Assembly (NCBI RefSeq): GCF_003334255.1
Contig: NZ_QOWU01000003.1
Length of the DNA stretch: 64,000 nt
From: Escherichia coli
Lineage (GTDB): Bacteria; Pseudomonadota; Gammaproteobacteria; Enterobacterales; Enterobacteriaceae
Direction: 5' to 3' (one strand)
A program made the position numbers and the translations under genes. The notes under the pieces were generated by a model. It was not told the DNA's origin and did no database searches. It saw only the letters and a program-made list of their open reading frames with translations. Of this stretch, positions 6,605 to 10,701 are shown piece after piece. Positions within the stretch are counted from its first letter, which is position 1. Each line of letters starts with the position of its first letter.

Positions 6605-7696
6605 ATGAAAAGAGCGCCTCTTATAACAGGTCTTTTGTTGATATCCACATCCTGCACTTATGCCTCCTCAGGAGGGTGTGGAGCCGACAGCACTAGCGGT
6701 GCGACAAATTACAGCAGTGTGGTTGATGATGTTACGGTGAACCAGACAGATAACGTGACAGGACGGGAGTTTACCTCTGCAACGCTAAGTAGCACTAACT
6801 GGCAATACGCCTGTTCCTGCTCTGCGGGTAAGGCAGTTAAACTTGTCTATATGGTCAGCCCCGTACTTACCACCACTGGACATCAGACAGGATATTACAA
6901 ACTCAATGACAGCCTGGATATTAAAACCACATTACAGGCAAACGACATTCCAGGACTCACAACCGACCAGGTTGTCTCTGTTAACACCCGATTCACACAG
7001 ATAAAAAACAACACGGTATATTCTGCTGCAACCCAAACGGGTGTTTGCCAGGGTGATACGTCTCGTTATGGACCCGTTAATATTGGTGCGAACACCACCT
7101 TTACCCTGTATGTCACCAAGCCATTTCTCGGCTCGATGACCATTCCGAAAACGGATATTGCCGTCATTAAAGGCGCGTGGGTCGATGGAATGGGAAGCCC
7201 GTCTACAGGTGACTTCCATGATTTAGTCAAGTTATCGATTCAGGGAAATCTCACCGCCCCACAGTCGTGCAAAATTAATCAGGGCGATGTTATTAAGGTT
7301 AATTTTGGATTCATCAATGGTCAGAAGTTTACCACCCGCAATGCCATGCCAGACGGTTTTACTCCAGTAGACTTTGATATCACTTATGACTGTGGTGATA
7401 CTTCAAAGATTAAAAACTCGTTGCAAATGCGCATCGACGGTACAACTGGGGTAGTAGACCAGTACAACCTGGTCGCCAGGCGAAGAAGTTCAGACAATGT
7501 GCCCGATGTCGGTATTCGTATTGAAAATCTCGGCGGCGGAGTTGCAAATATTCCTTTTCAGAACGGTATCCTTCCCGTTGATCCTTCCGGGCATGGCACC
7601 GTCAATATGCGCGCCTGGCCAGTTAATCTGGTCGGTGGTGAGCTGGAAACAGGAAAATTTCAGGGCACAGCCACCATTACCGTCATCGTGCGGTAA
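6605..7696 (+). CDS. yraK: Fimbrial adhesin-like (tip) protein
   Basis: 363 aa from ATG 6605 ([22 protein letters not shown]...); signal peptide; last gene of the chaperone-usher operon. Confidence 0.85.
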
Positions 7697-8600
7697 AAGA
7701 AGACGTTGCGTTTTGATTAACGCAACGCTTCGGCACTGTTACCCCTGCTGCTCCAGCGCATAACTTATACAGCGCATTTTTCTTCACGCCGTGAATTTCT
7801 GCGGCCAGCGCCGCCGCTTTTTTCAGCGGCAGTTCTGCCTGTAGCAGCGCCAGCGTGCGCAGGGCATCGGCGGGTAAGTCTTCTTCCTGTGCTTTATGAC
7901 CTTCGACAATCAGCACCATTTCGCCTTTGCGACGGTTTTCATCTTCCTTTACCCACGCCAGCAGCTCGCCAACGGGCGCGCCGTGAATGGTTTCCCAGGT
8001 TTTGGTCAGCTCACGCGCCAGAACCACGTAGCGGGATTCGCCTAATACCGCAACGATATCTTCCAGGCTATCTAACAGACGGTGGGTAGATTCATAAAAA
8101 ATCAGCGTGCGCGGCTCCGCTTCAATGGCTTTTAGCGCATCACGGCGGCCTTTTGATTTGGCAGGTAAAAAGCCTTCGTAACAGAAACGGTCAGAGGGTA
8201 AACCCGCTGCGCTTAACGCAGTGATAGCAGCACACGGCCCGGGTAGCGGCACCACGCGGATCCCCGCTTCACGGCAGGTACGCACCAGATGGTAGCCAGG
8301 ATCGTTAATTAGCGGCGTTCCGGCATCGGAAACCAGCGCAATGTTTTGCCCCTCTTGCAGCTTCGCCAGCAGCGTTTCAGCTTTTTGTTGTTCGTTATGG
8401 TCGTGCAGCGCAAACAACCGGGCATTAATCCCAAAATGTTGCAGCAATAAACCGGTGTGACGAGTATCCTCGGCGGCAATCAGATCAACGGCCTGTAATA
8501 CCTCTAACGCACGCTGGGTGATATCCGCCAGATTGCCGATTGGCGTCGGTACAATGTAAAGCTGGCCCTGAGAATTATCCGCCGATTGGTGTTGTTTCAT
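7683..8600 (-). CDS. rsmI: 16S rRNA 2'-O-ribose C1402 methyltransferase; 3' end reads in a shifted frame in this window (305 codons instead of the expected 286)
   Basis: N-terminus [24 protein letters not shown]; tetrapyrrole-methylase-type SAM MTase; the +1 frame between about 7760 and 7783 leads to ...YALEQQG-TAA at 7739-7741, i.e. a 286-aa product. Confidence 0.85.
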
Positions 8601-8664
8601 TGTGTCGTCCGTATTGCCGATTTAATATTGAGCATTGCGTAAAAAAAATATCACTGGATACATT

Positions 8665-10701
8665 ATGGTACCCTCAACATTTTCTCGTTTGAAAGCCGCG
8701 CGTTGTCTGCCTGTTGTTCTGGCAGCCCTGATTTTCGCCGGTTGTGGCACCCATACTCCCGATCAGTCCACTGCTTATATGCAGGGCACGGCGCAGGCTG
8801 ATTCTGCCTTTTATCTTCAGCAGATGCAGCAAAGCTCTGATGATACCAGGATCAACTGGCAATTACTCGCCATTCGTGCACTGGTGAAAGAAGGTAAAAC
8901 CGGGCAGGCGGTTGAGTTGTTTAACCAACTACCGCAAGAACTGAACGATGCTCAGCGTCGCGAGAAAACACTGCTGGCGGTAGAGATTAAACTGGCGCAG
9001 AAAGATTTTGCTGGCGCGCAAAACTTGCTGGCGAAAATCACACCTGCCGATTTAGAACAAAACCAGCAAGCGCGTTACTGGCAGGCAAAAATCGATGCCA
9101 GCCAGGGGCGTCCTTCCATTGATTTACTGCGCGCGTTAATTGCTCAGGAACCGCTGCTTGGCGCGAAAGAAAAACAGCAGAATATTGATGCCACCTGGCA
9201 GGCGCTCTCCTCCATGACTCAGGAACAGGCGAATACGCTGGTGATCAACGCCGACGAAAATATTCTGCAAGGCTGGCTGGATCTGCAGCGCGTCTGGTTT
9301 GATAACCGTAACGATCCCGACATGATGAAAGCCGGGATCGCCGACTGGCAGAAACGTTATCCGAACAATCCGGGCGCGAAAATGCTGCCAACGCAGTTGG
9401 TTAACGTAAAAGCGTTTAAACCAGCCTCGACCAACAAAATCGCCCTGCTGTTGCCACTGAATGGCCAGGCAGCGGTATTTGGTCGCACTATTCAGCAAGG
9501 CTTTGAAGCGGCGAAAAATATCGGCACTCAGCCAGTGGCAGCTCAGGTAGCTGCCGCACCTGCCGCAGACGTAGCTGAACAACCTCAGCCGCAAACCGTG
9601 GATGGCGTTGCCAGCCCGGCACAAGCCTCGGTTAGCGATCTGACCGGTGAACAGCCTGCAGCCCAGCCGGTGCCTGTAAGCGCCCCGGCGACAAGCACCG
9701 CAGCGGTAAGCGCACCCGCAAATCCATCCGCAGAGCTGAAAATCTACGATACCTCATCACAACCACTTAGCCAGATCTTAAGCCAGGTTCAGCAGGATGG
9801 CGCGAGTATTGTGGTCGGTCCGTTGCTGAAAAATAACGTTGAAGAGTTGCTGAAGAGCAACACTCCGCTGAACGTACTGGCACTGAACCAGCCGGAGAAT
9901 ATCGAAAATCGCGTCAATATTTGTTACTTCGCGCTTTCACCGGAAGACGAAGCGCGCGATGCAGCGCGTCATATTCGTGACCAGGGTAAACAAGCGCCGC
10001 TGGTGCTGATCCCACGCAGTTCATTGGGCGATCGCGTAGCCAATGCGTTTGCGCAAGAGTGGCAGAAACTGGGCGGCGGCACCGTTCTGCAACAAAAATT
10101 TGGTTCCACCAGCGAATTACGCGCGGGTGTTAACGGCGGTTCTGGTATTGCTTTAACGGGTAGCCCGATTACTCTCAGAGCGACAACCGACTCCGGCATG
10201 ACGACCAACAATCCAACGCTGCAAACCACGCCAACCGATGACCAGTTCACCAATAATGGCGGTCGTGTCGATGCGGTGTACATTGTGGCAACGCCGGGTG
10301 AAATCGCTTTTATCAAACCGATGATCGCCATGCGTAACGGTAGCCAGAGCGGTGCAACGCTGTACGCCAGCTCCCGCAGTGCGCAAGGGACCGCTGGCCC
10401 GGATTTCCGACTGGAGATGGAAGGCTTGCAGTACAGCGAAATCCCGATGCTGGCAGGCGGTAATCTACCGTTAATGCAGCAGGCACTCAGCGCGGTGAAT
10501 AACGATTATTCACTGGCTCGCATGTATGCGATGGGCGTCGATGCCTGGTCGCTGGCAAATCATTTCTCACAAATGCGCCAGGTTCAGGGTTTTGAAATCA
10601 ACGGTAATACCGGAAGCCTGACGGCTAACCCGGATTGCGTGATTAACAGGAACTTATCATGGCTACAGTACCAACAAGGTCAGGTAGTCCCCGTCAGTTA
10701 A
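8665..10701 (+). CDS. lpoA: Outer-membrane lipoprotein activator of PBP1A
   Basis: 678 aa from ATG 8665 ([28 protein letters not shown] lipobox); TPR-like N-domain, Ala/Pro-rich linker. Confidence 0.9.

What the first reader, a model, noticed from the sequence alone, without database searches (positions are those of the whole stretch)
9530..9730. Ala/Pro/Gln-rich low-complexity linker inside LpoA
Residues around …[68 protein letters not shown]… form a disordered spacer between the N-terminal TPR-like domain and the C-terminal domain. The DNA is GC-rich and repetitive (gcagc/gcacc units), so it is a likely indel hotspot.
Basis: partly seen in the sequence, partly recalled or inferred. Interest (0 to 1): 0.2.

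Follow-up and report, generated by a model that had tools for sequence, protein, structure and literature searches.

The report
Known disordered loop inside LpoA
The flagged stretch is the already published, floppy "Region 1" loop of the E. coli cell-wall-synthesis activator LpoA; it sits inside the C-terminal domain rather than between the two domains, and its only new feature is a small conserved motif of unknown function.

Summary
Window 9530-9730 encodes LpoA residues ~290-355. Its DNA is 66% GC against 54% for the gene.

This is "Region 1" (N285-P351), shown by NMR to be flexible in Jean et al. 2014. Both AlphaFold2 runs give pLDDT below 50 across roughly residues 294-350.

The loop is inserted between helix 270-286 and strand 357-362 of the C-terminal, periplasmic-binding-protein-like domain. 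The true N/C linker is K249-K258 and is rigid.

The DNA is not repetitive. TRF finds nothing, and GCAGC/GCACC counts match codon-shuffled expectation.

The "indel hotspot" idea holds only partly:
- All 5,425 E. coli genomes carry the segment, and 99 of 100 sampled copies have identical length.
- Rare slippage variants exist: a +30-nt duplication, and deletions of 120 and 231 nt at 9-nt repeats.
- Across Enterobacteriaceae the loop is 58-117 aa, and most homologues have 3-9 aa.

Selection is relaxed (dN/dS 0.23 against 0.03-0.04), except in a conserved island, D313-E329. That island is specific to Enterobacteriaceae and is not mentioned in the one paper on this region that I checked.

The finding is ordinary and already known. 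Interest is low.

The parts
8665..10701 (+). lpoA (yraM) coding sequence, 678 aa plus stop; outer-membrane lipoprotein activator of PBP1A
   Evidence: ORF listed (ORF listing starts at an upstream TTG, 8635). RefSeq annotates the equivalent ATG in 9 of the 11 genomes fetched as a 2037-nt CDS; the other two have length variants. Pfam PF04348 LppC at 2.3e-85 and 3.9e-49. PDB 2mhk and 6dr3 are 100% identical over the N domain. Foldseek top hits are full-length H. influenzae LpoA, 5kcn and 5vat.
9409..9438 (+). True N/C interdomain linker, K249-K258 (rigid)
   Evidence: Defined in Jean et al. 2014, with NMR evidence of correlated tumbling and IUPred below 0.38. AF2 pLDDT is 92-97 here in the first run.
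9436..9522 (+). First strand (258-263) and first helix (270-286) of the C-terminal domain, upstream of the insert
   Evidence: DSSP on both AF2 models. Aligns to H. influenzae LpoA residues up to 259.
9517..9717 (+). Region 1 (N285-P351): the disordered Ala/Pro/Val/Gln-rich, acidic loop insertion.
   Evidence: Absent from H. influenzae LpoA. NMR-flexible in Jean 2014. pLDDT below 50. Composition and entropy. dN/dS 0.227 against 0.025-0.042.
9601..9651 (+). Conserved island D313-E329 ([17 protein letters not shown]) inside Region 1; candidate short linear motif
   Evidence: In 50 Enterobacteriaceae sequences: V315 0.98, S317 0.98, P318 1.0, A321 1.0, D325 0.92, L326 1.0, T327 0.86. The regex hits 227 of 238 full-length Enterobacteriaceae cluster representatives, 1 of 105 wider-family representatives and 1 of 20,000 shuffles. 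There are 0 nonsynonymous differences among 10 E. coli alleles.
9676..9716 (+). 30-nt unit ([10 protein letters not shown], 9676-9705) followed by a partial second copy; flanked by the direct repeat GTAAGCGCMCC at 9676 and 9706. This is the slippage site duplicated in strain AST85.
   Evidence: The pattern has 2 matches against 0.06 expected. AST85 lpoA is 688 aa with a perfect extra 30-nt copy.
9469..9477 (+). Left copy of the exact 9-nt direct repeat GCAGCGGTA (right copy at 9700-9708; spacing 231 nt = 77 codons)
   Evidence: family D9. The rare 601-aa allele P0012 is deleted exactly between the two copies.
9700..9708 (+). Right copy of the 9-nt direct repeat GCAGCGGTA
9538..9546 (+). GCAGCTCAG, the left copy of an 8/9 direct repeat with GCAGCCCAG at 9658-9666 (spacing 120 nt)
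   Evidence: The rare 638-aa allele P0008 has a 120-nt deletion with its junction at these repeats.
9733..9750 (+). Strand 357-362 (ELKIYD), where the conserved C-terminal-domain fold resumes
   Evidence: DSSP. Alignment to H. influenzae LpoA resumes at E. coli residue 351.
10141..10257 (+). Region 2 (S493-N531), the second flexible insert of the same domain. It carries the only length polymorphism seen in more than one complete E. coli genome (48-nt deletion, 10186-10233).
   Evidence: Jean 2014. pLDDT dips at 515-521 and 506-532. 33 of 5,423 genomes fall below 80% coverage, and the fetched or listed examples carry a 48-nt deletion.

Best explanation
The segment encodes 'Region 1' (N285-P351) of the outer-membrane lipoprotein LpoA. 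It is an intrinsically disordered, acidic, Ala/Pro/Val/Gln-rich loop.

Shown:
- The loop is inserted between the first helix (270-286) and the second strand (357-362) of the N-lobe of the C-terminal, type-I periplasmic-binding-protein-like domain. It is not between the two domains.
- It is a lineage-specific addition. Most LpoA/LppC homologues have only 3-9 residues at this position, whereas Enterobacteriaceae have 58-117.
- It evolves about 5-9 times faster at nonsynonymous sites than the folded domains, yet remains under purifying selection.
- The GC-richness is a by-product of GCN (Ala) and CCN (Pro) codons.
- There is no tandem array in E. coli. Short 9-11-nt direct repeats sit at the junctions of rare in-frame duplications and deletions.

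Inferred:
- The loop is not part of the core activator fold.
- The rare length changes arise by replication slippage. In Enterobacter and Cronobacter, real oligopeptide repeats make the orthologous loop length-polymorphic.
- The low-complexity flanks act as flexible tethers that display a conserved 17-residue island, D313-E329 (core V-x-S-P-x-x-A-x-V-x-D-L-T). This island most likely works as a short linear motif that binds a partner in trans, either PBP1A or another periplasmic cell-wall factor. The partner is unknown.
For: Identity and position:
- ORF and annotation, Pfam LppC, and PDB sequence alignment showing the gap in H. influenzae LpoA.
- Foldseek hits to 5kcn, 3ckm and LivJ-type binding proteins.
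- AF2 secondary structure and pLDDT in two independent alignments.
- Jean et al. 2014: NMR assignments of flexible residues in N285-P351, a rigid linker at K249-K258, and function stated as unknown. The 2015 review repeats 'unknown function'.

Lineage specificity:
- Among 105 full-length representatives of 50%-identity clusters, long inserts (14-98 aa) occur only in closer relatives. The rest have 1-10 aa, mostly 3-9.
- In 50 Enterobacteriaceae sequences the insert is 58-117 aa.

Selection:
- dN/dS is 0.227 in Region 1, against 0.042 in the N domain and 0.025 in the C core.
- 30 of 89 amino-acid differences in nine alleles fall in this 10% of the protein.
- 17% of genomes are below 95% identical over 261 nt here, against 0.35% and 1.6% for equal-length controls in the N and C domains.

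Slippage:
- AST85 carries a 30-nt tandem duplication at the GTAAGCGCMCC repeats.
- P0008 has a 120-nt deletion and P0012 a 231-nt deletion, both at 9-nt direct repeats.
- Enterobacter cloacae alleles of 715/719/723/727 aa, and Cronobacter sakazakii alleles from 682 to 698 aa, differ by PAPA, QPAA or PA copy number in this loop.

Motif:
- Searches show the conservation. There is no nonsynonymous change in 313-328 among 10 alleles.
- The local sequence entropy is normal at 314-326, while both flanks are low-complexity.
Against: - No experiment or computation here shows that the motif binds anything.
- AF2 gives the motif the lowest confidence of the protein (pLDDT 27-35) and no secondary structure, even with 50 motif-bearing sequences in the alignment.
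- H. influenzae LpoA and most homologues lack the loop, so it cannot be needed for the basic LpoA fold. That those homologues still activate PBP1A is prior knowledge, not tested here.
- Rare natural alleles delete the motif (P0006, P0008), though their fitness is unknown and they are singletons.
- The dN/dS figures rest on 10 alleles. The motif is only 16 codons, so zero nonsynonymous changes is weak on its own.
- Length-variant frequency in E. coli comes from 100 sampled rows plus coverage counts, not from a full census. Small indels could be missed.
Confidence: 0.85

Rival explanations
1. The loop is functionless filler. It is a surface-loop expansion that is simply tolerated, and the apparent conserved island reflects shared ancestry and too little time to diverge, not function.
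For: - The loop is absent or only 3-9 aa in most homologues.
- Sequence and length vary strongly between genera.
- AF2 sees no structure.
- The literature states the function is unknown.
- Natural in-frame deletions that remove it exist.
Against: - dN/dS is 0.23, not about 1.
- Length is nearly fixed in 5,425 E. coli genomes.
- Within the same loop the flanks have diverged beyond recognition between Escherichia, Enterobacter, Cronobacter and Mangrovibacter, while V315, S317, P318, A321 and L326 stay at 98-100%. Shared ancestry alone does not explain that contrast.
Confidence: 0.3
2. One reading: the segment is a flexible spacer connecting the N-terminal TPR-like domain to the C-terminal domain, setting the distance or orientation between them.
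For: It is disordered and lies roughly in the middle of the protein.
Against: - It begins about 30 residues after the C-terminal domain starts and is flanked on both sides by elements of that domain: strand 258-263 and helix 270-286 before it, strand 357-362 after it.
- H. influenzae LpoA has both domains joined without it.
- NMR, SAXS and AUC show a rigid N/C connection at K249-K258.
Confidence: 0.02
3. The segment is a contingency-type hypermutable repeat tract, whose frequent indels generate functional length or phase variants of LpoA within E. coli.
For: - The segment is GC-rich and low in complexity.
- Rare duplications and deletions occur at short direct repeats.
- Orthologous loops in Enterobacter and Cronobacter show copy-number variation of 2-4-aa units.
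Against: - There is no tandem array in E. coli.
- k-mer counts are explained by codon composition.
- All 5,425 genomes with a match reach at least 80% coverage, and 99 of 100 sampled copies have identical length.
- All variants seen are in frame and are singletons.
- Region 2, not Region 1, carries the only deletion seen in more than one complete genome (33 of 5,423).
Confidence: 0.04
4. The conserved island docks back in cis onto LpoA itself, for example into the inter-lobe cleft of the binding-protein-like domain, as an autoregulatory plug.
For: - The C domain has a type-I periplasmic-binding-protein fold with a cleft.
- Jean et al. speculate that the regions may fold under some conditions.
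Against: - Two AF2 runs, including one enriched for motif-bearing sequences, leave residues 294-350 as coil with pLDDT 27-36.
- NMR shows sharp, flexible-type resonances for 30 residues assigned within N285-P351 in the free protein.
Confidence: 0.07

Closest known systems
E. coli LpoA 'Region 1' (N285-P351), Jean et al. 2014, Structure 22:1047 (PMC4111904)
   Same: It is the same object: identical sequence and boundaries, disordered by NMR and IUPred, absent from H. influenzae LpoA, function unknown.
   Different: Nothing differs in the feature itself. Added here: population and family-wide variation, dN/dS, slippage junctions, and the conserved island D313-E329, which that paper does not mention.
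H. influenzae LpoA (PDB 5kcn, 5vat, 3ckm)
   Same: Same two-domain architecture: a TPR-like N domain and a type-I periplasmic-binding-protein-like C domain. Foldseek E = 7e-43.
   Different: It has only a short turn where E. coli has 67 residues, and it also lacks most of Region 2.
Orthologous loop in Enterobacter cloacae complex and Cronobacter sakazakii LpoA
   Same: Same insertion point, same conserved island, and same Ala/Pro/Gln-rich composition.
   Different: It is longer (70-117 aa) and contains genuine oligopeptide repeats (PAPA, QPAA, PA, and an 8-aa duplication). These give within-species length alleles of 715/719/723/727 aa and 682-698 aa. E. coli has no such array.
LpoB N-terminal proline-rich disordered region
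   Same: It is also a disordered segment in an outer-membrane activator of a class A PBP (as described in the review read).
   Different: In LpoB the disordered region is the N-terminal tether, up to ~145 A long, that lets the globular domain reach PBP1B. LpoA reaches PBP1A through a rigid elongated two-domain body, and its disordered regions are internal loops that do not contribute to reach.

Membership tests
LpoA / LppC (Pfam PF04348), outer-membrane activator of PBP1A | Sequence match to the LppC family profile | tested here: met
   PF04348 matches in two pieces, residues 42-338 (3.9e-49) and 350-672 (2.3e-85). The match is split at the insert. NCBIfam returned no family, which is unexplained but does not contradict the Pfam result.
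LpoA / LppC (Pfam PF04348), outer-membrane activator of PBP1A | Lipoprotein signal peptide with a lipobox cysteine | tested here: met
   Read directly from the sequence...[11 protein letters not shown]27-G. C27 is invariant in 112 and in 100 aligned homologues. No dedicated lipoprotein predictor was run.
LpoA / LppC (Pfam PF04348), outer-membrane activator of PBP1A | N-terminal all-helical TPR-like domain plus C-terminal type-I periplasmic-binding-protein-like domain | tested here: met
   PDB 2mhk and 6dr3 are identical over residues 27-256. 3ckm and 5kcn cover the C domain. Foldseek finds 5kcn at 7e-43, 3ckm at 5e-26, and then LivJ-type binding proteins.
LpoA / LppC (Pfam PF04348), outer-membrane activator of PBP1A | Binds and stimulates PBP1A through the ODD domain | not testable with these tools
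   Taken from the literature only.
LpoA 'Region 1' flexible insert (Jean et al. 2014) | Residues N285-P351, present in E. coli and absent in H. influenzae LpoA | tested here: met
   phmmer alignment: E. coli 37-291 matches Hi 4-259, and E. coli 351-472 matches Hi 252-376.
LpoA 'Region 1' flexible insert (Jean et al. 2014) | Disordered or flexible | tested here: met
   AF2 pLDDT is below 50 for 295-344 and 294-350, all coil. The composition is depleted of hydrophobic residues, and the mean TOP-IDP score is 0.246 against 0.08 in the folded domains.
   Strand 258-263 and helix 270-286 of the C domain precede it. The published linker is K249-K258.
Tandem-repeat / microsatellite indel hotspot | Head-to-tail repeated DNA units | tested here: not met
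   TRF finds 0 arrays at minimum score 30. GCAGC and GCACC counts equal the codon-shuffle expectation. The only repeat-like structure is 1.4 copies of a 30-nt unit.
Tandem-repeat / microsatellite indel hotspot | Frequent length polymorphism within the species | tested here: not met
   All 5,425 genomes with a match reach at least 80% coverage, and 99 of 100 evenly sampled copies have equal length. One complete genome has +30 nt. A few singleton draft alleles carry deletions. This is sampling, not a census.
Short linear motif in a disordered region | A conserved island flanked by rapidly diverging disordered sequence | tested here: met
   Searches show the conservation. There are no nonsynonymous changes in 313-328, against dN/dS 0.26 in the rest of the loop.
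Short linear motif in a disordered region | Binds a defined partner | not testable with these tools
   No complex prediction was possible, and no published partner turned up in four literature searches.

The most novel reading that the evidence does not exclude
The 17-residue island D313-E329 (core V-x-S-P-x-x-A-x-V-x-D-L-T) is conserved across the Enterobacteriaceae genera sampled, while the surrounding loop is scrambled. On this reading it is an unrecognised, family-specific short linear motif. Through it LpoA would recruit or be regulated by a periplasmic partner: a second contact with PBP1A, a hydrolase or another cell-wall enzyme, or peptidoglycan itself. That would give the 'function unknown' flexible Region 1 a specific role.
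Probability: 0.35. Interest if true: 0.45.

Novelty: already known. Interest (0 to 1): 0.15.

Why it matters
As stated, the finding matters little, because the disordered Region 1 of E. coli LpoA was described experimentally in 2014. This check contributes four things:
- A correction of the topology: the segment is an internal loop of the C-terminal domain, not an interdomain spacer.
- A negative result on DNA repetitiveness.
- A quantified picture of how the loop evolves: relaxed selection, near-fixed length in E. coli, and expansion and contraction between genera.
- A conserved motif inside the loop. This gives a concrete, cheap experiment for a region whose function the 2014 paper and a 2015 review both call unknown.

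If the motif binds a partner, it would add a lineage-specific layer to the regulation of the class A PBP, PBP1A, in enteric bacteria.

Tried and rejected
- Tandem repeats: TRF and the repeat finder on 9300-9960 found no arrays.
- RNA element: an Rfam gathering scan of 8400-10900 on both strands gave 0 hits. The antisense ORF 9136-9624 (162 aa) has no supporting evidence, and I treat it as a by-product of GC-rich coding sequence.
- NCBIfam scan of LpoA returned nothing. I relied on Pfam and PDB instead.
- Literature: four searches for functional work on Region 1 or for an LpoA-PBP1A complex structure found only Jean 2014 and a 2015 review. The SanA paper was read and is irrelevant. The PDB copy holds no E. 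coli LpoA C-domain or complex structure.
- Cis-docking of the motif: a second AF2 run with an Enterobacteriaceae-enriched alignment left it unstructured.
- Co-folding LpoA-C with PBP1A: considered and not attempted. mrcA is not in the window, a paired alignment would have needed another whole-database search, and the tool reports no inter-chain contacts or PAE, so the result would not have been interpretable.
- Naming the distant cluster representatives gave few taxon names: Sodalis has a 90-aa insert without the motif, and Limnobaculum has 4 aa. The exact phylogenetic origin of the insert therefore remains approximate.
- A complete census of Region 1 lengths in the 5,425 genomes was not possible, because at most 60 rows are listed per search. 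I used two evenly spread samples and the coverage counts instead.
Full report
**What is there**

The window is E. coli chromosome with the gene order yraK, rsmI (minus strand), lpoA, yraN, diaA, dolP. RefSeq annotation of the same locus in other strains agrees.

lpoA runs from the ATG at 8665 to the stop ending at 10701 and encodes 678 aa. The ORF listing reports an upstream TTG at 8635, but every RefSeq record fetched uses the ATG.

The flagged range 9530-9730 lies in frame with codons starting at 9532 and covers residues ~290-355. Frame 1 of 9530 is out of frame.

**Checking the observation**

The composition claims mostly hold.
- For N285-P351: Ala 27%, Pro 15%, Val 13%, Gln 12%. There is no Lys or Arg, and there are five acidic residues.
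- Only 2 of 67 residues are large hydrophobic or aromatic, against 24.6% elsewhere in the protein.
- The lowest 25-residue sequence entropy of the protein is centred at residue 344.
- Gln is not really enriched (10% elsewhere), whereas Val is.
- GC is 0.657 in the range, against 0.541 for the gene and 0.512 for the window.

The DNA is not repetitive.
- Tandem Repeats Finder finds nothing at its lowest threshold.
- The GCAGC and GCACC 'units' occur three times each. That is what shuffling the order of the same codons produces (expected 2.8 and 1.6). They are adjacent Ala/Pro codons, not repeat units.
- What does exist is a handful of short dispersed direct repeats.

**What it is**

Pfam matches LppC in two pieces that break at the insert.

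A sequence search of the PDB gives the following:
- The E. coli LpoA N-domain structures 2mhk and 6dr3 are 100% identical over residues 27-256.
- Full-length H. influenzae LpoA (5kcn) aligns in three blocks: E. coli 37-291 to Hi 4-259, 351-472 to Hi 252-376, and 530-677 to Hi 395-541.
- E. coli therefore carries two insertions relative to the solved structure, at about 292-350 and 473-529.

AlphaFold2 with a 112-sequence alignment gives a confident model (mean pLDDT 86.8). Around the insert it predicts strand 258-263, helix 270-286, coil 287-356 and strand 357-362, with pLDDT below 50 for 295-344.

Foldseek places the model on H. influenzae LpoA (E = 7e-43). It places the C domain on 3ckm and on LivJ-type periplasmic binding proteins.

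This is precisely 'Region 1 (N285-P351)' of Jean et al. 2014 (PMC4111904).
- They assigned NMR resonances of flexible residues inside it and inside 'Region 2 (S493-N531)', and noted that both are absent from H. influenzae.
- They defined the true interdomain linker as K249-K258 and showed that it is rigid.
- They stated that the function of the two regions is unknown. A 2015 review repeats this.

Its topology, a spacer between the N and C domains, is wrong. The segment is a loop inserted about 30 residues into the C-terminal domain.

**Is it an indel hotspot?**

Within E. coli, hardly.
- A 401-nt query and a 261-nt query each match 5,425 of 5,426 complete genomes, all with at least 80% coverage.
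- Of 100 records sampled at even steps down the ranking, 99 have exactly the query length.
- The lowest-ranked record, strain AST85, has a 688-aa LpoA. It carries a perfect 30-nt tandem duplication of VSAPA(A/T)STAA. In the window this unit is bounded by the direct repeat GTAAGCGCMCC at 9676 and 9706.

The 5.8-billion-protein collection holds singleton E. coli alleles with in-frame deletions.
- P0008 lacks 40 aa, with its junction at GCAGCTCAG/GCAGCCCAG, which lie 120 nt apart.
- P0012 lacks 77 aa, deleted exactly between the two GCAGCGGTA copies at 9469 and 9700.
- P0006 lacks 34 aa, with no clear microhomology.
- Deletions elsewhere in the gene are about as common among these singletons.

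By contrast, the deletion seen in more than one complete genome lies in Region 2. There, 33 of 5,423 genomes fall below 80% coverage, and both examples examined carry a 48-nt, 16-aa deletion.

Between genera the picture reverses.
- Among 105 full-length representatives of 50%-identity clusters, most have 3-9 residues at this position. Long inserts of 14-98 aa occur only in the closer relatives.
- In 50 Enterobacteriaceae sequences the loop is 58-117 aa.
- Enterobacter cloacae alleles of 715, 719, 723 and 727 aa differ by PAPA and QPAA units in this loop.
- Cronobacter sakazakii alleles from 682 to 698 aa differ by PA dipeptides and an 8-aa duplication, also in this loop.

**Selection**

Among ten E. 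coli alleles:

| Region | dN/dS |
|---|---|
| N domain | 0.042 |
| C-domain core | 0.025 |
| Region 2 | 0.146 |
| Region 1 | 0.227 |

- Thirty of 89 amino-acid differences fall in this 10% of the protein.
- Over 261 nt, 17% of genomes are below 95% identical to the window here. Equal-length controls give 0.35% in the N domain and 1.6% in the C domain.
- Constraint is therefore relaxed but not absent.

**A conserved island**

Inside the loop, residues D313-E329 ([17 protein letters not shown], window 9601-9651) stand out.
- V315, S317, P318, A321 and L326 are conserved at 98-100% in 50 Enterobacteriaceae sequences. These span Escherichia, Citrobacter, Salmonella, Enterobacter, Lelliottia, Pseudescherichia, Mangrovibacter, Franconibacter, Cronobacter, Siccibacter and Atlantibacter. 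The flanks are unalignable in composition and length.
- A regex for the core hits 227 of 238 full-length Enterobacteriaceae cluster representatives. It hits 1 of 105 wider-family representatives (the Mangrovibacter one) and 1 of 20,000 shuffles of the loop.
- No nonsynonymous change occurs in 313-328 among the ten alleles, while the rest of the loop has dN/dS 0.26.
- The local sequence entropy is normal exactly here, between two low-complexity flanks.
- Jean et al. do not mention it.
- A second AF2 run, enriched for motif-bearing sequences, still leaves 294-350 as low-confidence coil. A cis-docked fold is therefore not supported.

My inference is a short linear motif displayed on flexible tethers that acts in trans on an unknown partner. 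This step is inferred, not shown.

**Verdict**

- The feature is real, and as a disordered region it is already known.
- The interdomain-spacer interpretation is refuted.
- The repetitive-DNA claim is not supported.
- The indel-hotspot claim is true across genera and in some sister species, but not appreciably in E. coli.
- The only new element is the conserved island, which makes the 'unknown function' of Region 1 directly testable.
- Interest is low.

Noticed in passing
window 7762-7763 (rsmI, minus strand; ORF 7683-8600): The window carries a 1-nt insertion near the 3' end of rsmI (coding strand AAGTTATGCG instead of AAGTATGCG). It frameshifts roughly the last 9 residues and extends the ORF to 305 aa, against the annotated 286/287 aa. 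No E. coli complete genome matches the 301-nt query exactly: the best hits are 99.7% identical and span 300 nt. It could be a sequencing error, a strain-specific mutation or an introduced change.
   Followed up: partly
window 10141-10257 (LpoA Region 2), deletion 10186-10233: 33 of 5,423 complete E. coli genomes have under 80% coverage of Region 2. The two examples examined, FDAARGOS_1059 (662-aa LpoA) and O103 WL1467, carry a 48-nt in-frame deletion that removes about T508-P523. It is flanked by a repeated Thr-Asp codon pair.
   Followed up: partly
locus L014 (E. coli AST85, NZ_AP043644.1), lpoA 269-2335: This is a divergent lpoA allele: 86.9% identity over the loop query, and 29 differing columns (10 of them gaps) in the protein alignment to the window's LpoA. 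It also carries the 30-nt tandem duplication, giving 688 aa.
   Followed up: yes
E. coli genome searches: One genome has two lpoA places, one of them on a plasmid. One of the 5,426 genomes has no lpoA match at all.
   Followed up: no
window 7560-7742 (3' end of yraK and the yraK-rsmI intergenic region): About 1,850 of the 5,370 matching genomes align only to the rsmI part of the query (positions 184-301). The yraK fimbrial-gene side is therefore missing or replaced in roughly a third of E. coli.
   Followed up: no
window 10659-10701: The yraN start codon lies 43 nt inside the 3' end of lpoA, an overlap that RefSeq also annotates. This suggests translational coupling.
   Followed up: no
proteins P0043 (748 aa) and P0069 (713 aa), from metagenome assemblies: These LpoA sequences look chimeric. 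P0043 has an N domain identical to E. coli but an Enterobacter-like, 135-aa Region 1. P0069 has an Enterobacter-like N-terminal part and a C terminus identical to E. coli. They are probably assembly chimeras rather than recombinants.
   Followed up: no
protein P0124 (598 aa, labelled Enterobacter kobei): This LpoA is only 59% identical to E. coli and has a 6-residue loop in place of Region 1. Other Enterobacter LpoA are about 70% identical with loops of 100-117 aa. It is possibly a mislabelled or contaminated assembly.
   Followed up: no
window 8635-8664: An in-frame TTG 30 nt upstream of the annotated lpoA ATG extends the mechanical ORF to 688 aa. RefSeq uses the ATG in every record fetched.
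   Followed up: partly
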